A stretch of 64,000 bases of DNA. It comes from Candidatus Latescibacterota bacterium (GTDB taxonomy: Bacteria > Latescibacterota > UBA2968 > UBA8231). The DNA is taken from contig OZ244561.1 in the NCBI GenBank assembly GCA_965217585.1, positions 3,232,001-3,296,000 on the forward strand. The letters are read 5' to 3'. Of the stretch, positions 43,499 to 63,630 are shown piece after piece. A program made the position numbers and the translations under genes. The number at the start of each line of letters is the position of its first letter. Position 1 is the stretch's first letter. Under the pieces are notes generated by a model, which did no database searches, was not told the DNA's origin, and was given only the letters and a program-made list of their open reading frames with translations.

Positions 43499-43744
43499 AT
43501 GAAGCCGTTCGAGAAATGCCCAGTATGCAGCGGGGAGTTGGTGAGAAAGGACGTTGAAAAACTTCTCCATGGCGGAAAGCATACTGCCGTGATTAGCGTT
43601 TCTGCAGAAGTATGCCTTCATTGCGGAGAAAGATTGTATTCAGAGGGTACAATCAAACGTTTTGAAGAAATCCGTGTAAAACTAGCCCAGGAACAGACCA
43701 CGGATTTTCAGCCGATGGGACAAGCCTTTCAAGTCAATAGCTGA
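43499..43744 (+). CDS. YgiT/MqsA-type zinc-finger protein (orphan antitoxin-like cassette remnant)
   Basis: CPVC...AEVCLHCGERLYS; followed by attC. Confidence 0.8.
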   Translation: MKPFEKCPVCSGELVRKDVEKLLHGGKHTAVISVSAEVCLHCGERLYSEGTIKRFEEIRVKLAQEQTTDFQPMGQAFQVNS

Positions 43745-43756
43745 TTCTCTGCCAGC

Positions 43757-43841
43757 GTATAACAACGGCCACACGACAACGGGGCATTCTCCCCTACGTC
43801 TAACTCGCTACGCGAGTTCGTGTGGCCGTAACTCGTTAAAG
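43757..43841 (+). other. attC site
   Basis: gtataac ... ggccacacga / tcgtgtggcc ... gttaaag. Confidence 0.75.
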
Positions 43842-44128
43842 GAACATGGGATGAGGCTGCATATTCACAGTGTATATTCACTATTGAGACAGAGCAGCTG
43901 CGGGTAGTTCTGGAGCGGCTGCCCCTGAAGTTACTCGGTTGGCAAGATACGTATGGGGCTGCCTCCAACGTGAAAGCCGAGAAGCTCGCTGCTGGTCCGC
44001 AGGACGGAAAGATCGTTGTGCCTGACTGAGTGCTAGCGCGACTCAAACCAAGACTGTCGTAATGTATCGCAGAGTATACCACGTTCTCTAAAATTCCGTT
44101 GATGCTACGTGCCGTTTGGCGCTTAGGG

Positions 44129-44340
44129 CACATCCTCATCGCCCTGCACCTGGGATCGCCGCCCGACGTGCTGGCGGCGCTCAAGGCTGGGTGCATTGAC
44201 TACGTGAACTTGAGTGGCTCGGCGATGCAAGTGCGGCAGGTGGCGGCGCTGGCGGATGCTGCGGACGTGCCGTGCTGGATCCAAATGGGTGGGTTGTGTA
44301 CCGGGGTGATGGCGGCCTACTCAGCGCATCTACAGGCGAC
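44129..44340 (+). pseudogene. Duplicated internal fragment of the enolase-family gene (43108-43319)
   Basis: IALHLG.P..VLAALKA.CIDYVNL...QMGGLCTGVMAAYS.HLQAT. Confidence 0.9.
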
Positions 44341-44400
44341 CATAGGGAAATGCCCGGCCCATTATGGGCTGGGCATTATGGCCTTCGCGTCGTCGCGCTA

Positions 44401-44566
44401 CCGGAAATTCAAGAATCATCTATCTCAATATATTACAATAGGTTATGTGTAATATATCAGCTTCGCAGTGTTGGTTTGCGGCTGTTTACACGAATACGTA
44501 CCTTCGGGTCAGATAAGTAGCACTTGGCGGCGATTACCCAAACCAATTGTTCGGGTACAAATAGAT
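44401..44566 (+). repeat. attI-like platform, copy 1 (core interrupted by IS)
   Basis: Homologous to 52446-52587 and 58316-58476; cgtaccttcgggt.agata, cggcgattaccc.aaccaattgttcgggtacaa. Confidence 0.75.
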
Positions 44567-45637
44567 TAGGACTTACGCAGTTGGATAGTTTAGGATAAGA
44601 TAGAAGCTACTCCCCCTCCGCCGCGAGCCAGTCCGATGAACCCAGCCAAGTGTGCAGACCACGACTACATCCACTTCCTGATCGCCGCTCAGTGCGCCTT
44701 CAGTTGTACTGAGGCCGCCCGCTGTCATCCTGAAGGGGGCCCTACGCCATCCCATGACGCCTTCACGCGCCTGCTCACAAGACAGCCTCCCGATACCGAG
44801 GCGTTGTGGCGAGAGACGCAGGGACTGGTCACCCTTCAGGGCGGCGTGTTGGCTCTGGACGATTCCACCTTGGACAAGCCCTATGCCAAGCGGATCGAAC
44901 TGGTGACGCGCCATTGGAGCGGCAAACATCACCGGGTGGTCTTGGGCATCAATCTCATAAGTATGGTCTGGTCGGACGGCCTCGCTTGCATTCCCTGCGA
45001 CTTCCGCGTCTATGACAAGCCGATCGGGGGCCACAACAAGAACGAGCACTTCCGGGCGATGCTGGCCAGTGCCCAAGCGCGCGGCTTTCAGCCCGAGTGC
45101 GTGGTGTTCGATAGCTGGTATGCTTCCCTCGACAACCTCAAGCGGATTCGCGCCTACGATTGGTCTTGGCTGACGCGCCTCAAGGCCAACAGACAGGTCA
45201 ACCCCGATGGGAGCGGCAACGTGGCGATCGGCTCTGTTGCCATCGAACCGGAAGGCCGGCGGGTGCATCTCAAGGGCTATGGGTTCATCCAGGTGTTTCG
45301 GACGGTCTCGGCAAACGGAGACGCGCAATACTGGGCAACCAACGACCTGGAGATGGCTGTCAGCCAGTTTGAGGCGTGGTCCAAGCGGGCGTGGTCCATT
45401 GAGACCTACCACCGAGGCCTCAAGCAGTGTTGCGGCGTCGAGCAGGCGCAGGTTCGGTCGGCACGGGCGCAGATGAACCATATCGCGTTGTCGATTCGCG
45501 CCTTCGTGCGGTTGGAGGTGCATAGACTCCAAACCGGTGTCAGTTGGTATGAAGCCAAAAGGAACATCATCCGAGAGGCTGTCCGGCTGTATCTGCAACG
45601 ACCACTGCACAGGCTCAACTCAACTGCGTAAGTCCTA
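44567..45637 (+). mobile_element. IS701-family element
   Basis: IR taggacttacgcagttg / caactgcgtaagtccta; target duplication tagat (44562-66, 45638-42). Confidence 0.9.
44636..45631 (+). CDS. IS701-family transposase
   Basis: SHDAFTR, LDDSTLDK, FDSWY, WSIETYHRGLKQ. Confidence 0.93.
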   Translation: MNPAKCADHDYIHFLIAAQCAFSCTEAARCHPEGGPTPSHDAFTRLLTRQPPDTEALWRETQGLVTLQGGVLALDDSTLDKPYAKRIELVTRHWSGKHHRVVLGINLISMVWSDGLACIPCDFRVYDKPIGGHNKNEHFRAMLASAQARGFQPECVVFDSWYASLDNLKRIRAYDWSWLTRLKANRQVNPDGSGNVAIGSVAIEPEGRRVHLKGYGFIQVFRTVSANGDAQYWATNDLEMAVSQFEAWSKRAWSIETYHRGLKQCCGVEQAQVRSARAQMNHIALSIRAFVRLEVHRLQTGVSWYEAKRNIIREAVRLYLQRPLHRLNSTA

Positions 45638-45733
45638 TAGATATGAAAATTCAGCATTTTGCAGTATATCTACAGAATAAAGGACGATATACCGCATATC
45701 CGCCGTTCAATCACTAGTTAAGTATCCGAAGCC

Positions 45734-47068
45734 ATGAATAGAGAGCATTTCTTGGACGATCTTGAGAAGTATCCGGTTGAGGGTGGAGATATTCCACCGA
45801 TCCTAGATCGAAGCGACGGGGGCTATGCATCTTGGCACATCAGGCTCCTTGCATGTCTTCAACGCGAACAGATGATATGGAGAAGCCAACCGGAGTACCC
45901 CTACCTTTCCGTCGACGCTGAAGCACTGAACCGGTGCCACTCAACCATCGGCAGGGCCGTTCTACTCGCTCATGAGTTCTTGTTGCAGAACCTAAGCCGA
46001 AAAGAACTAGGCCGGATTATGGCCGCTGGCATAGTCGGTGGCGGGGTATATGCAGGCATTACACCGACATCAGACTTCTTACCGGAAGGGGCAGCCAACC
46101 CCAATGCCCACTGCCTCTGCGCCTTCAACCATCCTCTATACATCAGATCTACACCGTTCATGGCAGAGGGTATCTGGCTCCTCGTCCTAGACGAAGACCA
46201 ACCTTATCAGTACGCTGTAGCGGATATAGATAGCTCTGAGTCGCACTCATTCCCTCTGTTGAACTCCCTGCCGTTGGGACCATATAGGGAGCTCCAGTCT
46301 CACTTTCGTGAGCGGTATAGACAGAGCCGAAAACCACTCAATGCAGATGAGCTTGCAGAGTTGGATGAATTCATCAGTACTGTTTTCGAGGCTAACCAAA
46401 AGGTCTTGAAAGAGGCTGAGCACTACCACCTGCGTCACAAGGACAAAAAGTCCCGGTACACCCATCCAGCGCCATGGCTCACACCGTTTGGTAGGCTGGT
46501 GCATGACGAGGAAGGTGAGCCCAGCATCGAGCACAACCTCGCACTCCTTCACTGCACGAAGGCTATCGAGGAGTTCAACTGTGCCAAGAACGCGGAGGAC
46601 AGCGGGAACGATGGGCGAAAAGTGATTCATGGAGCATACTGCATAATCGCCTTGGCAGCTTTTATTGAGGCGGCTGCTAACCGAGCGTACTTCGTTTCAA
46701 AGGGTTCACATGTCGTCTCGACTGATAACCAGACTTCGACCGCCCGCCTTCTCTCTGAAGCCGAGCAAATAGCACATAGACGGGACGATGCCCCACAGCG
46801 ACGGTTTAAACGGTTGAAACAGAGTTCCGAAGAATACAGAGCACTAGAGGAAGTGCGTCAGATTCGGAATAAGCTGATTCATGCAACTGAAGCTGCTGTC
46901 CCGATCGATCAAGGAGTGGGAGCATCAGAGCTTGTCGCCTGTCTCACGGTTGAGAATTGCAGGCGTCTGCTGTCTCTTGTGAGGAAGGCCCTAGTTCACA
47001 TTGTTGAACAGGTTCCTGAGATCGGTTTGCAGGTCCGACTCGACGAACAAGGTGAGATGGCTAGGTGA
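45734..47068 (+). CDS. Hypothetical cassette protein with C-terminal HEPN-like domain
   Basis: AAFIEAAAN helix and RNKLIH (Rx4H) motif. Confidence 0.65.
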   Translation: MNREHFLDDLEKYPVEGGDIPPILDRSDGGYASWHIRLLACLQREQMIWRSQPEYPYLSVDAEALNRCHSTIGRAVLLAHEFLLQNLSRKELGRIMAAGIVGGGVYAGITPTSDFLPEGAANPNAHCLCAFNHPLYIRSTPFMAEGIWLLVLDEDQPYQYAVADIDSSESHSFPLLNSLPLGPYRELQSHFRERYRQSRKPLNADELAELDEFISTVFEANQKVLKEAEHYHLRHKDKKSRYTHPAPWLTPFGRLVHDEEGEPSIEHNLALLHCTKAIEEFNCAKNAEDSGNDGRKVIHGAYCIIALAAFIEAAANRAYFVSKGSHVVSTDNQTSTARLLSEAEQIAHRRDDAPQRRFKRLKQSSEEYRALEEVRQIRNKLIHATEAAVPIDQGVGASELVACLTVENCRRLLSLVRKALVHIVEQVPEIGLQVRLDEQGEMAR

Positions 47069-47177: not shown

Positions 47178-47269
47178 CAAAAACGTGGAAGAATCCCGTC
47201 TGTGGGCATTCGCCTCTTGGCCTTTGGCACCCCGCATACGCGGGGTCGTAAATGGTGAGAGCGTTAGGC
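47178..47269 (+). other. attC site with degenerate left end
   Basis: Internal sequence homologous to the sites at 50775 and 62349; ends in gttaggc. Confidence 0.65.
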
Positions 47270-47297
47270 GACATCGACATCTTCGGGGAGAAGTGAC

Positions 47298-47729
47298 ATG
47301 GAGCGAGTCTTCAGAGCGCTCGGTACGGTCCTCGTGGCGGTCGTTCTCTTGGCGATAATTGGCCTGGGGATCGGGACGACGCAGCCGATGCCCGATAACG
47401 CCGTGGTCCTGCTTGATCAGTTGGAAGAGACCTACATCGCACCGCCTTGTCTTGAGTTCTCCGCAGAGCAGGAGGCCGAGTTTTCAAGACTCATGGGGGA
47501 CGTCTTCACCTTCGAGGATTCCATCGGCGTCTTCGAGGATATGACGGGGCTTCGTTACGCGGATGCGGCTAGGGCACGTCGCCTTAAGTTTCGTCCTGAT
47601 CCAGACTGCCGTGATCAAGGTGCTTTCACCAGCGATGGACGCAGCTTGACAGGGCTCGTCCTTCAGAACTTGGGAGTTCTCCCGGAGAAGCCCCGACGGT
47701 GGACCGACGACGGAGGCTGGAACTGGTAG
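47298..47729 (+). CDS. Hypothetical membrane-anchored cassette protein
   Basis: RBS ggag; N-terminal TM; bounded by gttaggcgac / gtcgcctaac. Confidence 0.7.
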   Translation: MERVFRALGTVLVAVVLLAIIGLGIGTTQPMPDNAVVLLDQLEETYIAPPCLEFSAEQEAEFSRLMGDVFTFEDSIGVFEDMTGLRYADAARARRLKFRPDPDCRDQGAFTSDGRSLTGLVLQNLGVLPEKPRRWTDDGGWNW

Positions 47730-47751
47730 TGCGGGGTGCCTCGGCCACGTC

Positions 47752-47842
47752 GCCTAACAGGTCCACTAGCGACTTCGGCCACTGCGTGGCCTCCACGAAC
47801 ACCTGCTTACGGCGGGCGTCACTAGTGGCCAAGGCTTTAGGT
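47752..47842 (+). other. attC site
   Basis: gcctaac ... ccactag / ctagtgg ... tttaggt (G of GTT altered). Confidence 0.8.
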
Positions 47843-47873
47843 GTAATCAAAATTCTGTATTGGGAGCGAATTA

Positions 47874-49559
47874 ATGCATCTGAAATCAATAATGCTCAGG
47901 AACTTTGGTCCTTTTCGAAAGTACGAGATACAGTTTCCGGAAGAAGACCAAGTGTGTGCTCTACTTACAGGAAAGAACAATGAAGGAAAGTCCTGCATCA
48001 TACGAGCACTTAAGCTGTTAAACGCTGCAACAAAGGTAGTTGGTCAGAATCGCCAAATAATCAATATCAATGGTGATGAGAGATATCGACTGTTACAGGT
48101 AGATTTAGATGGTGTTGTAGTTGGACGATTGGTACATAATTATCAGGAGACTATTGCAGAAATCAGAGGGACATTCAGCAATGGGATTAGGATAGAAGTG
48201 TTTCTTGATCCGATGCAAGACATTGTATATGCCGATCATATTGGTCAAGTGCCCAAAGAATTACGTGAAAGCATCGGCTTTATCCCTCCTCTCGGCCCAG
48301 TTGCAGAAGTTGAAGAACCGCTTACAGAACGCTACCTCCGATCTGTCGTTGATACTTCTCTTGCCCCGAGACACATAAGGAATCACTTCCGATTTATCTT
48401 AAGTAAAGATGAATTTGAACTTGTCCAAGACATTGTATCCAATACTTGGTCCGATGTAACCCTTCTTCGATGCGAACACGATGTGACTCAGAATCAGCTA
48501 AACACCTTTTACAAAGAAGGTCGTTGGGAACGAGAAATTGCGTGGGCAGGGCAAGGTCTTCAAGTTTGGTTTCAGATAGTTTCACACTTAGTTCGACTAC
48601 GGGACAAGCTACTAATAGTCTTTGATGAACCAGAAGTCAATTTACATCCGGAAAAACAGAATGATCTTGTTAGGTTAGCCCACGAGTATTGCCTAGGAAG
48701 TGCAATTATCGCTACACATTCTGTTGAGCTTATGAACAATGTCAGCGTTAGTCACATAGTTCATGTAGAGAAATCCAAAAGTAAACCAAAACCAAAGTCA
48801 ACTGATGATAGAACCCATCTTGAAATAGTGCGGTCTAGTATTGGTAGCAATTTCAACCTGATTGCCTCGCAATTTGATGACGTTGATGCTCTTGTATTTA
48901 CTGAAGATACTCAAGACTTCAAGACGGTAATAGCATTCGCGTCTCGACTCCGTATCAACGCTCGGTTATTCAATATTCCTTTGCATGGTTTTTCTGGGTA
49001 TAAAAAAGTAATCTATTACAAAGATGCCTATAATCTGCTAATTGGCAGAGAAATTGACTGTAGAGTTTTGTTGGATAGAGATTTTTACCCTGTTGACTAT
49101 TTAGAATCAGTGCGAAATGAGATGGAGAAACAAAGTATTCAGGTATTGTTTACTCCAGGAAAAGAAATAGAAAACTGTTTCTTGAGTCCCAAAATAATAG
49201 ATAAAATTATACCCAGAAATGAACGTAGTAGATTCGACACATTCTGGAACGAAGTCTACGAAGATCTTTACTATGATTGCTACGGGAGTTTTCTGAAACT
49301 ACATGAGGATTTTTTACCTTCGGGATTGGATACAAAGACTATAACTACTAAATATGGTCCTCAATTCAATAAAAAGTGGCAATCGCATGAATATCGACAT
49401 TTGTTAGTGTCAGGAAAAGTAGCTTTGAAAAAATTGCGAAAGTTCTATCGGGATACTACAGGAGACAACCTATCTCTCAAGCTTCTCCTTGATAGAGTTA
49501 AGCAATCGGGAGATTCAGATCTATCTCTAATAACTAAATCAATCTTTGGAAATGGATAG
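47874..49559 (+). CDS. ABC ATPase + TOPRIM-like fusion (OLD/PARIS-like nuclease), AT-rich cassette
   Basis: LRNFGPF, GKNNEGKS, GQGLQ, DEPEVNLHP, ATHS, FTED..D, LLDRD, KEIEN. Confidence 0.8.
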   Translation: MHLKSIMLRNFGPFRKYEIQFPEEDQVCALLTGKNNEGKSCIIRALKLLNAATKVVGQNRQIININGDERYRLLQVDLDGVVVGRLVHNYQETIAEIRGTFSNGIRIEVFLDPMQDIVYADHIGQVPKELRESIGFIPPLGPVAEVEEPLTERYLRSVVDTSLAPRHIRNHFRFILSKDEFELVQDIVSNTWSDVTLLRCEHDVTQNQLNTFYKEGRWEREIAWAGQGLQVWFQIVSHLVRLRDKLLIVFDEPEVNLHPEKQNDLVRLAHEYCLGSAIIATHSVELMNNVSVSHIVHVEKSKSKPKPKSTDDRTHLEIVRSSIGSNFNLIASQFDDVDALVFTEDTQDFKTVIAFASRLRINARLFNIPLHGFSGYKKVIYYKDAYNLLIGREIDCRVLLDRDFYPVDYLESVRNEMEKQSIQVLFTPGKEIENCFLSPKIIDKIIPRNERSRFDTFWNEVYEDLYYDCYGSFLKLHEDFLPSGLDTKTITTKYGPQFNKKWQSHEYRHLLVSGKVALKKLRKFYRDTTGDNLSLKLLLDRVKQSGDSDLSLITKSIFGNG

Positions 49560-50733
49560 GGCTTTGGTGCATGAATCGGTGTTTTTTCGGTTGCTCGTTT
49601 GAATAAAAACAGGCTCCTCAGTAGATTGAGCACGACTCTCGCTAAAAAACCCATGCCTTCTCTTCCAAGGAACCTGTCATGTCCAACGTATCGTCTTGCC
49701 CGTCTTCGGTCAAGCCCTGTCGCCGTCGCTCGAAGGTCGGGTATCGGGTGCGTAATTGGCCGGACTACGATGCGGGGCTACAACAGCGCGGTAGCTTGAC
49801 CGTGTGGTTCACGCCCCAAGCGGTCGAAGCGTGGTATTATCAAGGGCCGCCCCAACGGGGGGCCCAATATACCTTTTCGGATGGTGCCATCCAAACGGCG
49901 TTGACGCTGCGGCTTTTGTATCACTTGCCGCTGCGCCAAACCGAGGGGTTCGTCGCTTCGGTGTTGGCCTTGATGGGCTTGGCGGTACGGGTGCCGGATC
50001 ACACGACCCTATCGCGGCGTCAGGCCGACTTGGCGGTGGCGATGCCTACACAGCCCAAGGATCAACCCCTGCACTTGGTCGTCGACGCGACGGGGTTGAA
50101 GGTGTATGGCGAAGGCGAGTGGAAGGTGCGTCAGCACGGCTGGAACAAGCGGCGCACGTGGCGCAAATTGCACCTCGGCGTGGATGAAGCCACCGGCGAG
50201 ATCGTTGCACAGACCTTGACGACGAATAGCCAAGATGATGCGGGGCAGGTCGAGCCGTTGCTGGATCAAGTCGAAGCCCCCATCGGAGCGGTGGGCGGGG
50301 ATGGAGCCTATGATCGGCGCAAGGTGTTTGAGGCGTTGGCCGCGCCAGACCGGGGCCCGCCGATGCGTCCGATCATTCCGCCGCGCAAAGACGCCAAGAT
50401 TGAGCAACATGGCAACCGCAAAGCCGAGCCGTTGCCGCGCGATGAGACGATCCGAACCATCCGTAAACGGGGCCGTCGAACGTGGAAAAAAACCAGCGGC
50501 TATCATCGCCGCTCCATCGTCGAAACCCAGATCGGCCGCTACAAACAGATCCTCGGCGACACCTTGCGTGCCCGAACCCTACCCCACCAACAGACCGAAA
50601 CACGGGTGGGCTGTGCCGTGCTCAACCGGATGCGGGCGTTGGCCAAACCCGAGTCCTATCCGATAACCAAAAAAGCATAAATCACACGAGACAGGGGGCA
50701 ACACGGCCCCGCCGGTTTTCATGCAACAAAGCC
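49560..50733 (+). mobile_element. IS5-family (IS903-like) element
   Basis: IR ggctttggtgcatgaa / ttcatgcaacaaagcc; 9-bp target duplication aatggatag. Confidence 0.92.
49679..50680 (+). CDS. IS5-family transposase
   Basis: NWPDY..L.QRGSLTVW, VDATGLK..GEGEW, WRKLHL, GDGAYD, GYHRRS.VET. Confidence 0.93.
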   Translation: MSNVSSCPSSVKPCRRRSKVGYRVRNWPDYDAGLQQRGSLTVWFTPQAVEAWYYQGPPQRGAQYTFSDGAIQTALTLRLLYHLPLRQTEGFVASVLALMGLAVRVPDHTTLSRRQADLAVAMPTQPKDQPLHLVVDATGLKVYGEGEWKVRQHGWNKRRTWRKLHLGVDEATGEIVAQTLTTNSQDDAGQVEPLLDQVEAPIGAVGGDGAYDRRKVFEALAAPDRGPPMRPIIPPRKDAKIEQHGNRKAEPLPRDETIRTIRKRGRRTWKKTSGYHRRSIVETQIGRYKQILGDTLRARTLPHQQTETRVGCAVLNRMRALAKPESYPITKKA

Positions 50734-50774
50734 AATGGATAGTCGAGTTATATCAATGTTGATGATTTAATTAC

Positions 50775-50863
50775 ACCTAACACATCCATTTTCGCTACGA
50801 GGTATTCGCCCCTTGTCTTTGGCACCCAACATAAGCGGGGTTGTAGATAGCGAAACGTCATAT
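50775..50863 (+). other. attC site
   Basis: attacacctaac complements ttaggtgtaat (47837); ttcgcta / tagcgaa stem; right end gtcatat is degenerate. Confidence 0.75.
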
Positions 50864-50954
50864 GCCATGCATACAAACCATAGGCAGTTCACATCGACAC
50901 ATCGATACGGACCATCGCTGTTTGCAGCCAAGAGTTTTGTAGGATCTAAGAGAT

Positions 50955-51230
50955 ATGAAGCTGTTGACTAGTGACTCATTCAAGAAAGCAAAGACTTTCG
51001 TGAGGGATCAGGGCCGGGAATTAGAAAGACGGCTTCTATCGTATTATTTCGATGATGGAGCTCCAGTCGCGGTTCTAGACGAACTTGCTAGCTATCAGAA
51101 TCAGGATGGCGGTTTCGGCAATGGCCTTGAACCCGATCTCCAATTGCCCGATTCATCCGTTATCACGACGACCATTGCGCTACGCATTCTCAAAGAGGTC
51201 AAAGCGACTAGTAATGACGAGATTGTCCAG
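50955..51230 (+). pseudogene. Truncated 5' duplicate of the gene at 53378
   Basis: MKLLT.DSFKKA.TFV..QGRELERR... near-identical, including upstream 50914/53336. Confidence 0.85.
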
Positions 51231-51325
51231 AAAGGCCTCGATATCACAACGCCGCTCCCAGCACACTCGCCGTCGCCGGAACAGATGCAACCACGCCAGC
51301 GTCCGTTCCACCACCCACCGATATT
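51227..51325 (-). pseudogene. IS5-family transposase C-terminal remnant
   Basis: Minus strand reads RWVVERTLAWLHLFRR.RV.WERR.DIEAFL. Confidence 0.65.
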
Positions 51326-51366
51326 TTGCACTTTCATGTCACGGGTTTACCTCTGGAGTGTTGACA

Positions 51367-52365: not shown

Positions 52366-52366
52366 T

Positions 52367-52443: not shown

Positions 52444-52445
52444 TC

Positions 52446-52587: not shown

Positions 52588-52619
52588 ACATGAATTGGAT
52601 ACCCCAATGGAGCACATAG

Positions 52620-55584: not shown

Positions 55585-55837
55585 CCCACCTCGTTGCTAG
55601 CAGAGACACTGAAGAGCGAAGTAGATATGAATTTGGATTTCGATATTGAGCATCAAAATCCAGATGGCTCTTGGTCTCCTACTTGGACCTGGTATGGCCA
55701 GTATCCAGAAGCCTGGGAGCAAGCCGAACAGCATTGGAAGAGTTGTTTGACCGTTGAGATACTAAAGGCGTTAAAAGAATTTGGGCGGATTGAGGGTCTT
55801 TAGAGGCGATACTTTCAATATCACTTCAGATCGTCTT

Positions 55838-57250: not shown

Positions 57251-57251
57251 C

Positions 57252-57758
57252 ATGACAGAAATAGATGCATCCTGGTATCAACGGCCAACCGATATCCCAG
57301 AGCGTGTAGCCAGTGGCGGTGTAGTCGTTCGACTTCATGACGAGCAAATCTTCGTTGCTCTGACACGTGAGGGCGATATGGAAGAGTATGTCTTACCCAA
57401 AGGCGGTGTCGAATCGGGTGAAGACCTGCTAAAAGCCGCGTACCGCGAAATAAAAGAGGAAACGGGCCTGACGGATTTGACCTTGGTCAACAAACTCGAA
57501 GTCGTCGAACGCTTAACCTATGATAAAGACTTTTGGGCCGTGATCCATCTCTACTTGTTTCAGACCAAACAGATTGAAGCTACACCAACCGATACAGTCT
57601 ATCACTATGAGATGAAATGGTTCCCGATTGATCGGCTTCCCGGCTTTTTATGGCCTGAGCAGAAAGCATTATTGGAGCGTCATCAAGAGGACATTGTTCG
57701 CGAGATTAAAGCGATATCTGACATGAATAGAAGAAAATCTACACCTCTAACAGAGTAG
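57252..57758 (+). CDS. NUDIX hydrolase
   Basis: LPKGGVESGE....AYREIKEETGL. Confidence 0.9.
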   Translation: MTEIDASWYQRPTDIPERVASGGVVVRLHDEQIFVALTREGDMEEYVLPKGGVESGEDLLKAAYREIKEETGLTDLTLVNKLEVVERLTYDKDFWAVIHLYLFQTKQIEATPTDTVYHYEMKWFPIDRLPGFLWPEQKALLERHQEDIVREIKAISDMNRRKSTPLTE

Positions 57759-57771
57759 GAGAAACGCAGGC

Positions 57772-58134
57772 ATGGAACGCGCGTACCCCATCCTCCGGAT
57801 TGACGATTACGAAGAGGCAAAGAGCTACTACATCGAGTTCTTGGGGTTCAAAATCGACTTTGAGTGGCGTCATGCCGAGGATTTCCCCGTCTATATGGGC
57901 GTTTCGCGAGGCGGCTTAGCACTTCACTTATCGGAGCATCTCGGCGAACCGGCCGGCCGGCCTGGCGCAGTCCAACTTCAAGTCGAGAACGTCCTCGATA
58001 TCTATGAAGAGCTAAAGAGTAAGAAGGGCGACATGACGGAAGAGCCCATCGACCAGGCATGGGGCTCGACGGAGCTAAAGCTTATGGATCCATTTGAAAA
58101 TCAGCTAACCTTCACGAGCCCCACCCCCAAGTAG
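57772..58134 (+). CDS. VOC/glyoxalase-bleomycin-resistance family protein
   Basis: PILRI..., LGFKIDFE, LHLSEH, WG....DPF.N.L.F. Confidence 0.88.
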   Translation: MERAYPILRIDDYEEAKSYYIEFLGFKIDFEWRHAEDFPVYMGVSRGGLALHLSEHLGEPAGRPGAVQLQVENVLDIYEELKSKKGDMTEEPIDQAWGSTELKLMDPFENQLTFTSPTPK

Positions 58135-58173: not shown

Positions 58174-58260
58174 CCATAACACGTCCACTTGCGCTGCGGC
58201 GCATCGTAGCCACACATAGGTCTTAGCAGGGGCTCGTTTATGCGCCATCAACATCACGAC
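58174..58260 (+). other. Decayed attC-like site
   Basis: ccataac after the VOC gene, inner ggcgcat / atgcgcc stem; no intact GTT end. Confidence 0.4.
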
Positions 58261-58315
58261 GAAATCGCCGCTGAACTACCGCGTCGCCTGAAACAGCCTA
58301 TCCCTGGGGGAGGGC

Positions 58316-58476
58316 ACCGAATGTGCTATCTCAAGCTATCACAAGGGGTTACGTAGAGTACCCCAGCCTCGCGGGTGTTGGTTGAGACTGTTTACAAGAA
58401 GACGTACCTTCGGGTTAGATAAGCAGCACCTAACGGCGATTACCCTAACCAATTGTTCGGGTACAAGCAGTTATCG
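58316..58476 (+). repeat. attI-like platform, copy 3 (intact, first cassette inserted at G/TT 58470)
   Basis: taccctaac-caatt-gttcgggta-caagca-gttatcggca; last 10 nt complement tgccgataac at 59118-59127. Confidence 0.8.
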
Positions 58477-58526
58477 GCAAATCGCCCGAACCCTACGGAG
58501 CATGCCATTTCCAAAGAGGGCAATGG

Positions 58527-59039
58527 ATGTCTGAGGCATCAGGGCCAGCAAGGAAATACGAAGCATTTCTGGTAGAAACGGGAGGACAGGATGTTCTCGT
58601 CACCTGGTTTCCTTCTCACGATGTGCCGGAAGGGCAACGCCACGGCTCTGGTGGTATTTGCTTGACAGACAACGGCGAGGTTGTGTTGGCTACGCAAGAT
58701 GGGGAAACGTGGGGATTCCCGGCAGGCAGACCGGAAGGAAGTGAGTCGTGGGAGGAAACCCTGCGGCGGGAGATGAGAGAGGAAGCATGCGTTGAGGTCA
58801 GAGAGGCAAAGCTTCTGGGATTCTCACGCGGAGAGTGCATCAGGGGGCACGAAAAGGGTCTGGTGCTCGTGCGCTCGATCTGGCTAGCGAGAGTCGAGCT
58901 CAATGAGTGGGCGCACGAACACGAGACGCTGGCGCGCAAACTGGTTCAACCTGAAGGAGTCCTTGGGGAGCTGGCGCTGGACGTTTTTCTACCACTGCAC
59001 TATCGCGCTCTCATTGCTGCTGGCCTATTGAAGGAGTAA
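58527..59039 (+). CDS. NUDIX hydrolase (cassette)
   Basis: PAGRPEG.E...TLRREMREEA. Confidence 0.85.
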   Translation: MSEASGPARKYEAFLVETGGQDVLVTWFPSHDVPEGQRHGSGGICLTDNGEVVLATQDGETWGFPAGRPEGSESWEETLRREMREEACVEVREAKLLGFSRGECIRGHEKGLVLVRSIWLARVELNEWAHEHETLARKLVQPEGVLGELALDVFLPLHYRALIAAGLLKE

Positions 59040-59120
59040 GCAACCGAGGCCACACTCGGTTTGCGAGTTCTCGTTTGCACCCCACGCCTCGTCTCAAAGA
59101 CGGGCTGCGAAGGCGACTGC

Positions 59121-59212
59121 CGATAACAGCACGTTTTGCGCTGCGCCGCCCTTCAGGCGGCTTGGCCTTCGGCAACGCCTAGTCGGCGTTCGCAAACCGG
59201 AAAACGTTATAG
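59121..59212 (+). other. attC site
   Basis: cgataac ... tttgcg / cgcaaa ... gttatag. Confidence 0.85.
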
Positions 59213-59247
59213 GAAGTCGGCCCCGCAAAGCTCACCAAGAGGGAACT

Positions 59248-60129
59248 ATGCCATATGCTTCTATAAACGGCTTCCGGATGTTCTACGATGTCCGCGGGGA
59301 GGGCGAGGTCGTCGTGTTCATACACGGAGGATTTCCTTCCCTTGACATGCATCTCCGTGCGCAATCGAGTGGTAAGTGGGGATGGGAGATGGATTTCACA
59401 TCAGATTTCCGATTTGTGATGTATGATCGACGGGGCTGCTGGCTGTCTTCTCGTCCGGAGTCTGACTATGACATTGAGAATCAGGCACGGGATTTGTCTG
59501 AGTTGCTAGACCACCTTGAAGTGGAAAAAGCACACGTGATTGGTTCCTCTGCAGGGGGTCCAATTGCAATGCTGTTTGCAACTATCTACCCGGAGAGAGT
59601 TAAAACACTCGTATTGGCTGGTACCGCTGCGAATCTTTGGCCAGAGGAAGACCCGGTTACCCAAATTGTCAAAGAACAGTTGGGAATCCTTGAGAAACAG
59701 GATGCGGCGGCAGCTTGGGAGAACCGACCAAAGAGTGTTGAGCTTTCTCTAGATGTCCTGTGGGAATGCGAAGAGATGAAGGAAATAGGAGCCCTAGCAG
59801 AATACGAAGAGCGAATAGAGAAACTTGTAGCGAGGTCCAGTTTACCAGAACGTGTGCAATGGTATGGAATTCAGTTGCAAGCGATTGGCGCGTACCTTGA
59901 CAGAGATATAACTGTCGAATGCGGTCAAATAGGGGCTCCTACACTTGTGGTTCACGGGGCTAAAGACAGAGAAGTGCCCGTGGATTGGGGCCAGGATCTC
60001 GCAACGAAGATTCCCAGAGCCGCATTCCGGATGTATCCGGATGAGCCACACAGCCTTGTCCACAGAAGTGGTGGGGTGCGTGAGAATCTGATGGCGTTTT
60101 TCCGAAAAAGAGGGGATAGAGAGTCATAG
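59248..60129 (+). CDS. Alpha/beta hydrolase (cassette)
   Basis: HGG, YDRRG, GSSAGG nucleophile, PTLVVHG.KD, H. Confidence 0.9.
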   Translation: MPYASINGFRMFYDVRGEGEVVVFIHGGFPSLDMHLRAQSSGKWGWEMDFTSDFRFVMYDRRGCWLSSRPESDYDIENQARDLSELLDHLEVEKAHVIGSSAGGPIAMLFATIYPERVKTLVLAGTAANLWPEEDPVTQIVKEQLGILEKQDAAAAWENRPKSVELSLDVLWECEEMKEIGALAEYEERIEKLVARSSLPERVQWYGIQLQAIGAYLDRDITVECGQIGAPTLVVHGAKDREVPVDWGQDLATKIPRAAFRMYPDEPHSLVHRSGGVRENLMAFFRKRGDRES

Positions 60130-60173
60130 AAATCCCAGAGAAGGCGAAGTCGACATCGTATAACACGGTGCCC

Positions 60174-61439
60174 CAGGGCAATCGCATTATAACTGTCCAT
60201 GTGCCAATAGGTTCGCCAAATATTTGTGGTCCCACCCGGCCTTGAGCCGTTTGGTTTGCATGCCGGCTTTGGTCGTTTTGTCTTGCTGGAGTAGATTGAG
60301 CGCGATGTGGCGTATAACGGCCATATTTTCGGGGCCATGCCCCCGGCGTATGCGGGACTGATCTTCGTTGAAGACGACATCGAGGATCCAGTGTAATGAA
60401 TTTTCAATGGCCCAAGGACCGCGCACGGCCTGTCCCAATCGTTGGGCGTTGTTGTCCAGGGTGGAGATATAGTAGCGTCGTTCGACCGAAACGCTATCGC
60501 CGCGGTGCCGGGTGGCCTCGACCATACCGAACAGGCGTAAGCCCGGCCAGTGAGCATGATCGGCAAAAGCCTCAATCTGGTTGGTGGTCCAGTACTGCCG
60601 CGTTTCTCGACGCCCGTGGTTTTCGTCCTGAGTAAACCAATAATCTACGGTGGGGTCGGCGTGGAGTTTGGAGTCGGAACGGTCAAAGAGTTGTTGAAGA
60701 TGGGCGTGGAGTTGGGGTTGATTCTCCTTGACGGCCAGCACGTAGTCGGCCTCTTGTTCGACGACCTGTTCGGCCGTGCTTTTATGACACCCCAAGGCAT
60801 CGGGGGTGACCAGGCAGCCTTTGAGGTCTAAAACACGTAATAATTCGGGGATGAGCGCAATTTCTTCGAGGGCTTCTTCACCATGGAATTGCCCCAAGAC
60901 CAGCCGATTTTTTACCGCCCAAGCATGCACCCTGTGGATGGCGGCTTGGCCCGAGTCTGTATCGTAGGAGCGGCGCAGTGTCTTGCCATCCAGCGGCACG
61001 ATCTCGCCCTCGTCGGCCAACAGGGGCGTCAGCGATTGCACCCAAGCGGTAAAACAGTCTTGGAAATGCCAAGGCGAAATACGGGCCAACACACGACCGA
61101 AGGTATCATGCGAGGGGATGCCGTTCGGCACGGCTAGAAAGGTCTTAAGCCAGTCGGCTTTAGCCCGGCCAAATTCGGCGATCGCCACCCAGTTGTCGGC
61201 CCCACAAATGGAGCCGCACACCGCAATCATGAGAATATCAATCAAGCGATGCGCCCGACAACGCTCCATACGCGGGTCGGGGATATCGGCCAAATAATCC
61301 AGCAACCCCGAAGACGATGAGGACATGAAGAAACACTCCAGGCAAGAGGGAAATGGGAGGACATGAACCTAAGCTCCATAGAACGGCCAAAAGTAACATA
61401 ACCGCATGGTAAAAATTAACTTATAATGCGATTGCCCTG
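60174..61439 (-). mobile_element. ISAs1-family element
   Basis: IR cagggcaatcgcattataa / ttataatgcgattgccctg; 10-bp target duplication cacggtgccc. Confidence 0.94.
60187..61326 (-). CDS. ISAs1-family transposase
   Basis: DPR, PSHDTF, DGKTLR, VKENQ, HGRRE, WAIENSLHW.LDV.F.ED. Confidence 0.95.
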   Translation of the reverse strand: MSSSSSGLLDYLADIPDPRMERCRAHRLIDILMIAVCGSICGADNWVAIAEFGRAKADWLKTFLAVPNGIPSHDTFGRVLARISPWHFQDCFTAWVQSLTPLLADEGEIVPLDGKTLRRSYDTDSGQAAIHRVHAWAVKNRLVLGQFHGEEALEEIALIPELLRVLDLKGCLVTPDALGCHKSTAEQVVEQEADYVLAVKENQPQLHAHLQQLFDRSDSKLHADPTVDYWFTQDENHGRRETRQYWTTNQIEAFADHAHWPGLRLFGMVEATRHRGDSVSVERRYYISTLDNNAQRLGQAVRGPWAIENSLHWILDVVFNEDQSRIRRGHGPENMAVIRHIALNLLQQDKTTKAGMQTKRLKAGWDHKYLANLLAHGQL

Positions 61440-61565
61440 CACGGTGCCCTTGGCTTAGATCCCTTCGGGCCTTCGCCCAACCGTTGCGCGGTTCGGGGGC
61501 ACTGAAACGTTATACGAATGACAGAGTTAGAGGGATCAAGAGGCAATCAGGTAAGCCGATGTCGG

Positions 61566-62354
61566 ATGGGACGCACGGATTCGTACTTGATATGCTCCAC
61601 CCCACGCACAGGCAGTACTTTGTTATGTGGATTGCTGGAGTCCACGGAAGTCGCAGGTCGTCCTGAGTCATACTTCCGCCAGCCCGACGAGCAATCGTGG
61701 GCCGTCCGGTGGGGCATCGTCCGCTCGCCCGATGGGGTCTTTGAATATGCCGAATACGTGCGAGCGGCCCTTGCCTCAGGTAGGACCGAAAACGGAGTGT
61801 TTGCCGCAAGGATTATGTGGGGAACTTTGGACCATGTGGCCGACAAGTTAGGCGCGATCTATCCAACTCTCACTGGTGCCGATACCGAGCTATTGAACCA
61901 AGCGTTCGGCCATACGCGCTTTGTCTACCTGAAGCGCGACGATGTTCTGGCGCAGGCCGTGTCCTGGCACCGCGCCGAGCAAACCAACGTTTGGTTCGAG
62001 ACCGATCAGTCGGAATCGAAACAGCCCGAACAAGAACCCTGGTTCGACTTCGACCAGATCTGCAAGTTGGTTCAGGTGATCAATGAGCACAATGAGGCAT
62101 GGCGGGCGTGGTTTGCTTCGGTTGGTATTCAGCCACACCTAGTGCGGTACGAAGACCTTGCCGCTGACCCCGTCGGTGTGACTTGCGGCATTCTTGACTT
62201 CCTTAAGCTGGAGTTACCACCTGGGCGCAAGATTCAGACACGCCACAAGCGTCTAGCTGACGAACTCAACGCCCAATGGATCGACCGCTACCGAGCTGAG
62301 CAAGCAGAACGCTTGAGTGTGTCCTCGGAGTCCGAAAGGGACAAATTCGTATAA
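61566..62354 (+). CDS. Stf0-family sulfotransferase (cassette; start may be 61518)
   Basis: YLICSTPRTGSTLL, P.SYF, QAVSW.RAEQT, YEDL; bounded by gttatacgaat / attcgtataac with the stop codon inside the attC left end. Confidence 0.88.
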   Translation: MGRTDSYLICSTPRTGSTLLCGLLESTEVAGRPESYFRQPDEQSWAVRWGIVRSPDGVFEYAEYVRAALASGRTENGVFAARIMWGTLDHVADKLGAIYPTLTGADTELLNQAFGHTRFVYLKRDDVLAQAVSWHRAEQTNVWFETDQSESKQPEQEPWFDFDQICKLVQVINEHNEAWRAWFASVGIQPHLVRYEDLAADPVGVTCGILDFLKLELPPGRKIQTRHKRLADELNAQWIDRYRAEQAERLSVSSESERDKFV

Positions 62355-62437
62355 CACGACCATACCCGGCTACGGCCATTCGCGCCTTGGCCTTCAGCAA
62401 CCTGCTGCGCGGGGTCGCAAACCGAAAAACGTTAACG
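62349..62437 (+). other. attC site
   Basis: gtataac ... gttaacg; homologous to the sites at 59121, 50775 and 47178. Confidence 0.8.
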
Positions 62438-62472
62438 GAAATTTCAAAAATAGGAGGTTCAAGATCAGCTCT

Positions 62473-63630
62473 ATGAGCCTTTCACAAGATATTCAGGACT
62501 TAGCGCAAGAGGGTGCTGATTCTGTATTCGAGTATATCAATCGGACCGCCGAAATGACTCCTGAAGGGGCTAGATGGAAGACCCTTAGTATGCAGGACGA
62601 CTACTACTACGATATCAGCGTCTATAACGGAGTTGCAGGTATCAGCCTATTTCTCTCAGACTTCTTTCGCGTCACTGGCACTGCTAAGGCGCGCGATTTA
62701 GCCCTTGGAGCCAATCAGTGGTGTACGGCCAATGAACATACAGTTATTGGCAAGCGAAGGGGCTTGTGCGATGGTTGGACCGGTATTGGTATGGCTTGGC
62801 TTCACGCGTATACAGCGATTAATGAGTCACCTTTACTGACTGGAGCATATACCGCAGCGGATCGACTCACTCAAATGGATGCAGGCCCGGCGACGGAATT
62901 TCTGATTGGGGCGGCTGGTGAAGGGATATTCCTTATTCGGCTGTGGGAAGCCACCCGCAAAGACGCCTATCTCGAGGGTGCCCTTAAACAGGCGCAATGG
63001 TTAGAAAGCGTCGCTAGGCGAAATGAATTCGGCATACACTGGCCATTGATAGTCAATGATGCAACGCATGAACCCTTTCTTGGGTTTGTGCATGGTCCTG
63101 CTGGCATCGGGTATTTCTTCTTATTGCTGTACGAGGCAACAGGAGAACCACGCTGGTCGGAGCTCTGCCGTGAAATCGCGGATATGTTATTAAGGCGTGC
63201 GATCCCGGATCGAGGGGGTCTTAACTGGCCACAATTTGTACATGAAACAGAGGCTACGCGCTGCCAATGGTGCCACGGATCTCCGGGGGTAGGTCTTTTC
63301 TTTTCAAAAGCCTATGCGGTGTTAGAGGAAGAAGCGTACCTACAGACGGCAAAGGCCGCGGGTGAAACCACCTATGCTTATGGCGATGTACGAGCTAACC
63401 CCAGCCAATGTCATGGCTTGGCTGGCAATGCCGAGCTGTTTATTGAGTTGGCTAAGATTACAGACGATAAAATTTGGTCAGAACGAGCGTTTGAATTTGC
63501 GCAGAAAGCATTTAGTTACGAGAAGAGGGTGCCTGAAGGACCGATATGGCTTGCATCCGAATCTAGGTATGGATCTCCAGATTTCTTGACCGGTGCCGCA
63601 GGCGTTGGACACTTTTTTCTTAGGTTGTGA
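62473..63630 (+). CDS. LanC-like (lanthionine synthetase C) protein, cassette; 3' end may be clipped by IS
   Basis: YNGVAG, HGPAG, WCHGSPG, QCHGLAG, TGAAG. Confidence 0.88.
   Translation: MSLSQDIQDLAQEGADSVFEYINRTAEMTPEGARWKTLSMQDDYYYDISVYNGVAGISLFLSDFFRVTGTAKARDLALGANQWCTANEHTVIGKRRGLCDGWTGIGMAWLHAYTAINESPLLTGAYTAADRLTQMDAGPATEFLIGAAGEGIFLIRLWEATRKDAYLEGALKQAQWLESVARRNEFGIHWPLIVNDATHEPFLGFVHGPAGIGYFFLLLYEATGEPRWSELCREIADMLLRRAIPDRGGLNWPQFVHETEATRCQWCHGSPGVGLFFSKAYAVLEEEAYLQTAKAAGETTYAYGDVRANPSQCHGLAGNAELFIELAKITDDKIWSERAFEFAQKAFSYEKRVPEGPIWLASESRYGSPDFLTGAAGVGHFFLRL

What the first reader, a model, noticed from the sequence alone, without database searches (positions are those of the whole stretch)
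43499..63630. Integrase-less, multi-platform integron: a 20-kb cassette array organised by three attI-like sites
Seen: all cargo genes co-oriented; attC-like stems at 43757, 47178, 47752, 50775, 58174, 59121, 60158 and 62349. Cassette ends are complementary (gttaggcgac/gtcgcctaac; ttaggtgtaat/attacacctaac; gttatcggca/tgccgataac; gttatacgaat/attcgtataac). A ~150-bp non-coding element recurs three times, and its intact copy supplies the GTT of the first downstream cassette. No intI lies next to any copy. Known: integrons normally have one attI beside intI, and CALINs are attC clusters without intI. Inference: serial stand-alone attI/promoter platforms loaded in trans, an unusual distributed integron architecture.
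Basis: partly seen in the sequence, partly recalled or inferred. Interest (0 to 1): 0.85.

Follow-up and report, generated by a model that had tools for sequence, protein, structure and literature searches.

The report
Integrase-less integron arrays, repeated head element
An uncultured Latescibacterota bacterium carries integron-style gene-cassette arrays but no integron integrase anywhere in its genome, and a conserved short element ending in a hairpin and a GTT joining point heads several of these arrays, as a portable docking site would.

Summary
The region has a genome-specific attC family: 6 full sites, one 5' half, and one site split by an IS. Cassette ends are complementary far beyond chance, and the ~150-nt element recurs three times. 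No intI exists in the window or in the 7.3-Mb genome, and 0 of 31 genomes of the genus score over the IntI cut-off. Sister genera of the same family do have IntI.

The element is specific to the genus (17 of 24 relatives) and has at least 6 copies per genome. It ends in a conserved 36-nt core: a hairpin, then ACAAGCA, then G|TTA. Cassettes with a cognate R'' box are joined exactly at that G|TT in three independent places. In relatives the element sits directly after the stop codon of the flanking enolase-family gene, at the head of the array. It therefore behaves as an attI-like site that is not tied to an integrase.

Only one of the three window copies is intact. One has GAT instead of GTT and abuts an IS; one has lost the core. 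Both of these carry duplicated fragments of the enolase gene, so they are rearrangement products. The 51-58 kb stretch holds genes conserved across the genus with no attC sites, so it is not cassette array. Four IS elements and hybrid or half attC sites point to decay.

Verdict: a CALIN-type integron relic with a new, dispersed attI-like head module. Promoter function is not shown.

The parts
42481..43485 (+). Enolase-superfamily gene (MR_MLE_C). It is the conserved left flank of the variable locus.
   Evidence: Pfam hit PF13378, E 4.7e-32. The gene plus its PhyH neighbour are found in 31 of 31 genomes of the genus.
43499..43744 (+). 81-aa zinc-ribbon ORF resembling the MqsA N-terminal domain. 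It is the first cassette-like unit.
   Evidence: Pfam PF15731, 25.9 bits, below the cut-off of 30. Its first ~200 nt follow the enolase stop codon in 5 relatives as well.
43757..43841 (+). attC site with a canonical fold.
   Evidence: HMM hit. Bottom strand folds at -23.6 kcal/mol, z -6.2, with 0 of 200 shuffles as good.
44129..44340 (+). Duplicated internal fragment of the enolase gene.
   Evidence: 89% identical to 43108-43319 (family D3).
44396..44568 (+). Element copy w44. The hairpin is intact (44536-44556), but the crossover box reads GAT (44564-44566) and an IS follows directly.
44569..45638 (+). IS with 15-nt terminal inverted repeats (GGACTTACGCAGTTG). Transposase at 44636-45631.
   Evidence: Pfam DDE_5 and DDE_Tnp_1. 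Ends read. Separate public contigs span 44567-45639.
45734..47068 (+). 444-aa ORF with no family match.
   Evidence: 0 Pfam families and 0 PADLOC families.
47178..47269 (+). attC with a family-typical 3' half. Its 5' half does not pair with the 3' half (hybrid or degenerate site).
47264..47842 (+). Complete cassette: starts G|TTAGGCGAC, holds a 143-aa ORF (47298-47729), and ends with attC 47752-47842 whose R'' is GTCGCCTAAC.
   Evidence: 6 of 7 complementary bases beyond GTTA. Sequence read. Fold z -2.1.
47837..50863 (+). Cassette holding an OLD/ABC-type ATPase (47874-49559). It is interrupted by an IS5-like element (49560-50733, 16-nt inverted repeats, transposase 49679-50680) and ends with attC 50775-50863, whose R' reads GTC.
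   Evidence: Ends TTTAGGTGTAA and TTACACCTAAC match 7 of 7. Pfam and PADLOC hits. IS inverted repeats.
50914..51236 (+). Partial duplicate of the 5' region of the 250-aa ORF gene.
   Evidence: 93% identical to 53336-53651 (families D1 and D6).
51346..52365 (+). PhyH-like dioxygenase gene, conserved across the genus. Its native 5' end has been replaced.
   Evidence: Pfam PhyH. 85-94% identity in the loci of relatives, from about 51346-51368 onward. The 330-aa form in G001 lies just after the zinc-ribbon ORF.
52367..52443 (+). Two short fragments of the enolase gene.
   Evidence: families D4 and D5 (91% and 93%).
52446..52610 (+). Element copy w52. Only the 5' part is present; the hairpin-GTT core is missing.
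52620..58134 (+). Genes conserved across the genus, with no attC between them: HAD hydrolase (52620-53324); a 250-aa ORF (53378-54130) cut by an IS4-like element (54097-55585, 17-nt perfect inverted repeats); PLP-dependent decarboxylase (55781-57250); NUDIX (57192-57758); glyoxalase (57772-58134).
   Evidence: Pfam. Synteny at 92-97% identity in relatives. IS inverted repeats. Public contigs, including two from RNA libraries, lack the IS (joint 54084->55584).
58175..58223 (+). The 5' half of an attC (R'' CCATAAC, L'', first hairpin). The 3' half is missing.
   Evidence: Half-site HMM, E 0.062. A public contig from another strain has a complete attC here, joined to 62420.
58319..58472 (+). Element copy w58, intact. 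Hairpin arms at 58442-58449 and 58455-58462, spacer ACAAGCA, crossover G|TT at 58470|58471.
58471..59212 (+). NUDIX cassette (ORF 58527-59039) joined at the element's G|TT. Ends with attC 59121-59212, R'' TGCCGATAAC.
   Evidence: 6 of 7 complementary bases. Fold z -2.8, 0 of 200 shuffles as good. The gene sits in other sequence contexts in G021, G022 and G012.
59207..61514 (+). Alpha/beta-hydrolase cassette (ORF 59248-60129). Its attC (60154-60173 plus 61441-61514) is split by an ISAs1-type IS at 60174-61440, whose transposase (60187-61326) is on the minus strand.
   Evidence: Pfam. IS ends and target duplication. A public contig without the IS has 0 differences. Cassette ends match 5 of 7.
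61509..62437 (+). Sulfotransferase cassette (ORF 61518-62354). Ends with attC 62349-62437, R'' ATTCGTATAAC.
   Evidence: Pfam Stf0, E 3.9e-65. Ends match 7 of 7. The attC halves do not pair.
62473..63630 (+). LanC-like gene, the last co-oriented unit. No attC was found after it.
   Evidence: Pfam LANC_like, E 1.9e-48. No HMM hit lies beyond 62437 in the window or in the next 20 kb.

Best explanation
This is a decaying, IS-riddled integron relic of the CALIN type in an uncultured Latescibacterota genome. It sits at a chromosomal hotspot downstream of an enolase-family gene, and that hotspot is conserved across the genus.

The cassettes were built by IntI-type recombination at G|TT. They carry ~90-nt attC sites of one genome-specific family, and each cassette's first bases complement its own R'' box.

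The repeated element is the head module of such arrays. It has two parts. The first is a variable ~130-nt 5' region, possibly a promoter or leader. The second is a conserved 36-nt core, ACCCGAAC-CAATT-GTTCGGGT-ACAAGCA-G|TTA, which acts as an attI-like acceptor site. New cassettes are joined at its G|TT.

The module is not tied to an integrase gene. It occurs at several loci and several times within arrays. No genome of the genus searched has an intact intI, while sister genera do.

In the window one copy (w58) is a working-type head with four attC-bounded or terminal cassettes behind it. The other two copies are damaged duplicates created when the array head, with pieces of the enolase gene, was copied and rearranged.

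Shown: the sites, the joints, the absence of intI, and the distribution. Inferred: that the core is bound and cut by an IntI-type enzyme, either lost or supplied in trans. Also inferred: that the 5' part drives expression.
For: The attC family and cassette joints are real.

The genome has no IntI. The best TIGR02249 hit is 84 bits against a cut-off of 265 in a six-frame search that reads through stops. The five tyrosine recombinases are XerD, a XerC-like protein and three others, none IntI. In the genus, 0 of 31 genomes score over the cut-off. In the phylum, 17 of 168 do, and 9 of 45 genomes from other genera of the same family match at E<=1e-45.

The element is found in 17 of 24 relatives of the genus and in 0 of 16 genomes from other genera searched. 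The genome holds 6 full and 4 partial copies.

Sequence downstream of the core is unrelated between copies: 29% mean identity, against 86% for the core (n=28). Divergence begins right after GTTA.

Cognate cassettes are joined at the core's G|TT in three places:
- w58: GTTATCGGCA against TGCCGATAAC.
- The 620-kb array: GTTATAGGACA against the reverse complement of its R'', GTTATAGGACG, 10 of 11.
- G001: GTTAGATGACA against CGTCATCTAAC, 10 of 11.

The element or core lies 3-15 nt after the enolase stop codon in G005 and G020. In G012 it follows a duplicated enolase 3' end.

The 620-kb array starts at the core, behind a FAD monooxygenase gene. It runs through NUDIX, GNAT, APH-like and methyltransferase cassettes with attCs.

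Three of the four multi-attC clusters in the genome hold the element.
Against: - No recombinase for the site is known in this genus, so 'attI-like' rests on anatomy alone.
- In sister genera that have intI, neither the element, the core nor this attC family lies within the 11 intI loci fetched. Descent from a classical attI is therefore not shown.
- The element is often fused behind only the 5' half of an attC, at 3 or more different junction positions. Canonical G|TT exchange does not produce this.
- In G005 and G001 the bare core follows a stop codon like an attC would. Copy w58 can pair an upstream TAAC with its GTTA like a mini-attC, though at z -1.3.
- Core conservation is inflated by ascertainment. 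19 loci were found with an exact core pattern.
- Promoter evidence is weak. Only w52 matches a sigma-70 pattern, and the region has fewer such matches (9) than shuffles give (13.2 +/- 3.5).
- The arrays show decay: 4 IS elements, half and hybrid attCs, and indel joints inside attCs.
Confidence: 0.55

Rival explanations
1. The element is not an attI. It is the 3' part of a second, long class of attC (about 215 nt: R''-L''-first hairpin, then element, then hairpin-R'). It travels with a cassette and brings a promoter for the next cassette. The bare 36-nt core would be a mini-attC.
For: At least 4 different upstream genes end in an attC 5' half fused to the element (g2187, g2189, g2167, and the L010 group). 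The R'' in front of g2187 is cognate to the start of its cassette, 5 of 7 beyond GTTA. The core follows stop codons directly in G005 and G001. Copy w58 folds with TAAC paired to GTTA.
Against: The long units do not fold end to end. No L' complementary to L'' exists near the 3' end in the 4 units folded. The AAC of the putative mini-R'' is not conserved among copies. The junction between the attC half and the element varies. In G020, G012 and at 620 kb the element follows an ordinary, non-cassette gene at the head of the array.
Confidence: 0.15
2. One reading: three functional stand-alone attI/promoter platforms in this window, each currently loaded in trans by an integrase from elsewhere.
For: Cassettes have been joined at different core copies: w58, the 620-kb copy and G001's copy. 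Cassette content at the enolase locus differs between species. IntI exists in sister genera, and one split copy exists in G015.
Against: Two of the three window copies lack a usable crossover box and carry duplicated enolase fragments. The indel joints seen in public contigs lie inside attCs or genes, not at G|TT. No integrase was found in 31 genomes of the genus.
Confidence: 0.12
3. The element is a different kind of thing, either a small mobile element or a small-RNA gene, which homes to or is retained at attC hairpins. Its link with cassette starts would be secondary.
For: It is multi-copy and specific to the genus. It is fused into attC sites. Four contigs from RNA library X17 stop at about 44510, inside the element, followed by letters I recognise from memory as Illumina adapter sequence. 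Contigs from RNA libraries also cover the element.
Against: The aligned copies show no terminal inverted repeats or target duplications, and the 5' boundary varies. No transposase is linked to it, and the two IS110-family copies in the genome lie elsewhere. It matches no Rfam family. RNAalifold finds only the 3' hairpin and one short stem in 16 copies. The G|TT joints with cognate R'' boxes need an integron-type exchange at its end.
Confidence: 0.1
4. An ordinary integron rearranged by IS elements, with its intI just outside the window or elsewhere in the genome.
For: Four IS elements and several duplications lie in the region.
Against: The whole-genome six-frame search finds no IntI or IntI pseudogene. 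The nearest tyrosine recombinase, at genome position 3,359,213-3,360,226, is 63 kb past the window end. It is sporadic in the genus (4 of 31 including G000) and is not IntI.
Confidence: 0.02

Closest known systems
[quoted passage not shown] 2016, PMC4889954; passages read)
   Same: Two or more co-oriented attC sites within 4 kb, with no intI or intI pseudogene nearby. The cargo is mostly unknown or non-resistance genes. IS elements are present. The genome lacks any IntI, a situation the paper calls surprisingly frequent.
   Different: Here the arrays share a conserved, multi-copy head module with its own G|TT acceptor site. The passages I read do not describe such a feature for CALINs. IntegronFinder itself was not run.
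Sedentary chromosomal integrons at a fixed locus, such as the Xanthomonas integron beside a conserved gene with intI often inactivated (10.1101/2025.06.18.660453, search listing only; details recalled) and Vibrio superintegrons (recalled)
   Same: A species- or genus-specific homogeneous attC family. The array sits at a conserved chromosomal position next to a core gene. Cargo varies between relatives.
   Different: No intI or remnant lies beside the array. The head site is repeated inside arrays and at other loci.
attI sites of classical integrons, such as attI1 with R and L boxes plus direct repeats (recalled, not from a call)
   Same: A crossover at G|TT in a GTTRRRY-type box where incoming cassettes are joined. 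An inverted-repeat element lies just upstream. The position is at the array head.
   Different: It is not adjacent to intI. There are many copies per genome. The core is a perfect 8-bp hairpin, and binding by an integrase is untested.
attG secondary genomic insertion sites for cassettes (Loot et al., 10.1101/2022.09.11.507474; abstract and outline read)
   Same: Cassettes are inserted by integrase outside attI and attC, next to ordinary genes, and depend on local promoters.
   Different: By the abstract, attG sites are very diverse in sequence. Here one conserved 36-nt sequence recurs and is kept across genomes.
IS insertion into attC sites, such as the IS1111-attC group (recalled)
   Same: One IS sits inside an attC with a target duplication, and a strain without it exists.
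   Different: By Pfam the IS here is an ISAs1-type DDE element, not IS110/IS1111.

Membership tests
Complete integron | intI gene (a tyrosine recombinase with the IntI-specific domain) next to the array | tested here: not met
   TIGR02249 best 84 bits against a cut-off of 265 in the whole genome. The five PF00589 genes are XerD, a XerC-like protein and three non-IntI proteins.
Complete integron | attC sites flanking co-oriented cassettes | tested here: met
   Family HMM hits. R''/R' boxes and cassette-end complementarity. 3 of 6 sites give canonical folds.
CALIN | At least two attC sites less than 4 kb apart on one strand | tested here: met
   Sites 47178 and 47752; sites 59121, 60158 and 62349. 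The sites were defined with my own HMM.
CALIN | attC sites accepted by IntegronFinder's covariance model | not testable with these tools
   The model is neither in Rfam nor in the script box.
CALIN | No intI or intI pseudogene nearby | tested here: met
   The six-frame search reading through stops found none in the genome.
attI site (for the element's core) | GTTRRRY-type box at which the first cassette is joined at G|TT | tested here: met
   w58, the 620-kb copy and the G001 copy, each with a cognate R'' matching 10 of 11.
attI site (for the element's core) | Lies directly beside intI, one per integron | tested here: not met
   No intI. 6 full and 4 partial copies in the genome.
attI site (for the element's core) | Bound and cleaved by an integron integrase | not testable with these tools
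   Needs a recombination or binding assay.
attC site (for the element's core) | Imperfect palindrome with R''/R' and L''/L' boxes that folds as a single strand | tested here: inconclusive
   Copy w58 pairs TAAC with GTTA around the hairpin, but at z -1.28 with 23 of 200 shuffles as good. Most copies lack the AAC.
Known RNA family (Rfam 15) | Covariance-model match | tested here: not met
   0 matches at gathering scores over the window. Only a chance miRNA hit at E 6.1 on 58150-58560.
Transposable element or MITE (for the element) | Terminal inverted repeats and target-site duplication at fixed ends | tested here: inconclusive
   No formal search was made. Alignments of 15-16 copies show a variable 5' boundary and no repeated flank.

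The most novel reading that the evidence does not exclude
This Latescibacterota genus may run a distributed integron without a resident IntI. A portable 36-nt hairpin-G|TTA core would serve as an attI that can be seeded at many loci and inside arrays, often together with a ~130-nt leader that may give a promoter or a small RNA. Deep cassettes would then get their own entry and expression point. Recombination would be done by a transient integrase or by a non-IntI enzyme. One untested lead for the latter is the third tyrosine recombinase conserved across the genus (29 of 31 genomes).
Probability: 0.2. Interest if true: 0.8.

Novelty: new variant of a known kind. Interest (0 to 1): 0.55.

Why it matters
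CALINs in genomes without any integrase are common but unexplained. It is not known how their cassettes got there, whether they still move, or how they are expressed (PMC4889954, passages read).

Here a whole genus shows cassette arrays headed by one conserved, multi-copy acceptor module. Cassettes are joined exactly at its G|TT, and close sister genera still carry IntI. That gives a concrete, testable pair: the core sequence and a sister-genus integrase. It can test whether attI function can be uncoupled from intI and spread through a genome.

It also extends integron-type arrays to Latescibacterota. A full-text search for integron together with Latescibacter* returned 7 papers, none about integrons of this phylum by title or abstract start.

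Tried and rejected
- **Energy scan for attCs.** A generic scan of AAC...GTT hairpins over the window did not separate attCs from GC-rich background. I dropped it in favour of family HMMs.
- **Consensus structure of the attCs.** RNAalifold on 12 attCs predicted only 3 pairs. The pairing registers differ between sites, so I built no covariance model.
- **Long units as one hairpin.** Four units of attC half plus element, folded as one strand, showed no end-to-end pairing.
- **Cognate start for g2189's R''.** The best match lay inside a coding region, so I treated it as chance.
- **IS110/bridge-RNA idea.** The two IS110-family copies are at 0.42 and 5.84 Mb, far from any element copy. Dropped.
- **Accessory recombinases as partner.** L066 and L067 are paralogues found in 4 of 31 genomes, which does not match the element's spread.
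- **Loci thought orthologous to the 620-kb head.** Four loci of relatives share only the module, so they gave no comparison of cassette order there.
- **intI loci of sister genera.** No enolase or PhyH gene, no element, no core and no attC of this family in the 11 loci. A repeat search on one of them found nothing useful.
- **Flanks of the intI-like contigs of G015-G017.** BLAST against G000 gave only weak or unrelated synteny.
- **Co-oriented ORFs after the core.** One starts within 150 nt in 29 of 30 regex matches, but the test is permissive and two matches are doubtful. Not used as evidence.
- **Parts of the stretch without RNA-contig cover** are not interpreted.
- **Habitat.** Tool labels show sponge and marine metagenomes for some runs that hold only small shares of the stretch. 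I make no claim beyond those labels.

Full report
**Setting.** The window is positions 3,232,001-3,296,000 of a single-contig 7.32-Mb genome. Records holding the same core sequence are titled as MAGs of Candidatus Latescibacterota; 3 of the 19 stretches are labelled Gemmatimonadetes. Upstream in the window lies a BREX-like defence cluster, so the neighbourhood is a variable island.

**Are the attC sites and cassettes real?** Yes.
- An HMM built from six window candidates recovers them at E 8e-21 to 1.5e-11. It also finds the same ~90-nt family in other clusters of the genome, at about 611-620 kb, 2.16-2.19 Mb and 4.30-4.31 Mb. A 12-sequence HMM and half-site HMMs confirm this.
- Three of the six fold as bottom-strand DNA into the canonical end-to-end hairpin (z -6.2, -2.8, -2.1). 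One keeps only the inner stem. Two have halves that do not pair.
- The site at 58174 is only a 5' half.
- The site at 60158 is a good attC split by an ISAs1-type IS with a 9-bp target duplication. A public contig with no differences carries the unsplit attC.
- The strongest signature is that each cassette's first bases complement its own R'' box. Over the 7 bases beyond GTTA, nine cognate pairs score 6, 7, 6, 5, 7, 6, 4, 5 and 3. The 72 non-cognate pairs average 2.7 and none reaches 6. That is the footprint of exchange at G|TT between a circular cassette and a resident site.

**Is there an integrase?** No.
- A six-frame search of the whole genome with the integron-integrase model gives at best 84 bits against a cut-off of 265.
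- The genome has five tyrosine recombinases. One is XerD (347 bits, over its cut-off), one is XerC-like, and three fit neither IntI nor Xer. None lies in the window.
- Two of the three others are sporadic paralogues (4 of 31 genomes). The third is a core gene of the genus (29 of 31).
- Across the genus, 0 of 31 genomes pass the IntI cut-off. One draft genome (G015) has a two-frame intI on a 2.4-kb contig (251 + 161 bits).
- In the phylum, 17 of 168 genomes pass, and 9 of 45 genomes from other genera of the same family match at E<=1e-45.
- The lineage therefore knew integrons, and this genus lacks the enzyme.

**What is the repeated element?**
- The three window copies belong to a family with 6 full and 4 partial copies in this genome.
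- Copies occur in 17 of 24 relatives of the genus and in 0 of 16 genomes from other genera. They are often clustered: G021 contig C26 has 4 full copies plus a 5' piece within 16 kb, interleaved with attCs.
- Alignment shows two parts. The 5' part is ~130 nt and diverges (63% mean identity, n=16). The 3' core is 36 nt, ACCCGAAC-CAATT-GTTCGGGT-ACAAGCA-GTTA (86%, n=28).
- After the core, copies are unrelated (29%). Part of the core's conservation is ascertainment, because 19 loci were found with an exact core pattern.
- Sequence after the core begins GTTAxxx like any cassette start.
- In three independent places the cassette behind the core ends in a cognate R'': w58 (GTTATCGGCA against TGCCGATAAC), the copy at 620 kb (10 of 11), and the copy after the PLP-decarboxylase gene in G001 (10 of 11).
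- The core's G|TT has therefore served as an acceptor site.
- No Rfam family matches. A consensus fold of 16 copies finds only the core hairpin and one short stem.

**Where does the element belong?**
- The enolase-family gene and its PhyH neighbour are present in all 31 genomes at 66-95% identity.
- The full element starts 15 nt after the enolase stop in G020. The bare core starts 3 nt after it in G005. In G012 a duplicated enolase 3' end, including the stop codon, runs into the element. In G001, G002 and G003 the element lies 1-2.5 kb downstream.
- The ancestral layout is therefore enolase gene, then element, then cassettes, which makes the element the array head.
- The same holds at a second locus in this genome. 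A FAD-monooxygenase gene is followed by the core, then by NUDIX, GNAT, APH-like, methyltransferase, GH5 and further cassettes with attCs.
- Three of the four multi-attC clusters in the genome hold the element.

**The window in detail.**
- Only w58 is intact. It is followed by the NUDIX, hydrolase and sulfotransferase cassettes and the LanC-like unit.
- Copy w44 keeps the hairpin but reads GAT for GTT, and an IS with 15-nt inverted repeats starts 2-3 bases later. Copy w52 has lost the core.
- Both are preceded by fragments of the enolase gene (89-93% identical to 43108-43319). A further 275-nt duplication links 50954 and 53377.
- The stretch 51.3-58.1 kb (PhyH-like, HAD, 250-aa ORF, PLP decarboxylase, NUDIX, glyoxalase) is found in the same order at 85-97% identity at the enolase locus of six relatives. 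It has no attC.
- Four IS elements are present.
- Public contigs show strains that lack the 7.7-kb block 43.5/43.7-51.3 kb, the IS elements, the NUDIX gene at 57.2-57.7 kb, and the 4.2-kb block 58204-62420. In the last case a complete attC joins the glyoxalase gene to the LanC-like gene, and both breakpoints lie inside attCs.
- Recent change here therefore looks like IS movement and recombination between repeats, not exchange at G|TT.

**What remains odd.** The element is repeatedly fused behind only the 5' half of an attC, with at least three different junctions and at least four different upstream genes. The R'' in front of copy g2187 is cognate to the start of its cassette. These long units do not fold end to end. 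Three readings remain open: a second, promoter-bearing attC class; deletions stimulated by the attC palindrome; or homologous exchange between arrays.

**Expression.** This is inference. Only w52 has a sigma-70-like match, and the region has fewer such matches than shuffles give. Contigs from two RNA libraries cover the element, and one runs from the core into the NUDIX cassette. Four contigs stop at about 44510, followed by letters I recognise from memory as adapter sequence. DNA carry-over cannot be excluded.

**Comparison and verdict.**
- By definition this is a CALIN (PMC4889954), and it resembles sedentary integrons fixed beside a core gene.
- The new feature is a conserved, multi-copy, integrase-independent head module with a working-type G|TT acceptor. 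It is unlike the diverse attG sites (abstract) and unlike a single attI beside intI.
- I file it as a new variant of a known kind.

Noticed in passing
window 27569-38962 (+): A BREX-like defence cluster. It comprises a DUF6079 protein (1244 aa, 1865 bits), an N6/N4 DNA methylase, an AAA_15/AAA_21/DUF3696 ATPase, an ORF with no family match, and a PglZ-domain protein.
   Followed up: no
window 47874-49559 (+): The cassette-borne 561-aa ATPase matches the AriA, GajA, PtuA and Old defence ATPase models (best E 9.9e-19). It may be a defence gene carried as an integron cassette, and an IS5-like element is now inserted behind it.
   Followed up: partly
G000 genome 611,000-621,600, minus strand (locus L023): A second, cleaner array: a FAD-monooxygenase gene, then the core module, then NUDIX, GNAT, APH-like kinase, two methyltransferases, GH5 and another APH-like gene, with attCs between them.
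   Followed up: partly
window ~44510 (inside element copy w44): Four contigs from a size-fractionated metatranscriptome library stop here, followed by letters I recognise from memory as Illumina adapter sequence. This is a possible discrete RNA 3' end just after ACCTTCGGGTC (table 7).
   Followed up: no
G000 genome 6,415,858-6,416,829, minus strand (locus L005): A third tyrosine recombinase (324 aa, only 129 bits to XerC). It is conserved in 29 of 31 genomes of the genus at 79-97% identity. Its role is unknown.
   Followed up: partly
window 17599-18543 (+) and 19552-20718 (-); locus L028 1446-2612: Further IS elements: an IS1595-type transposase and an IS4-like 388-aa transposase. A transposase of the same length and Pfam domains lies just past the window end. 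The genome is rich in IS elements.
   Followed up: no
window 44341-44395, and relatives L040 and L038 ~9580: A palindromic module (AATGCCCGGCC...GGCTGGGCATT) precedes some element copies. In G001 it is fused directly to the bare core without the 130-nt part.
   Followed up: no
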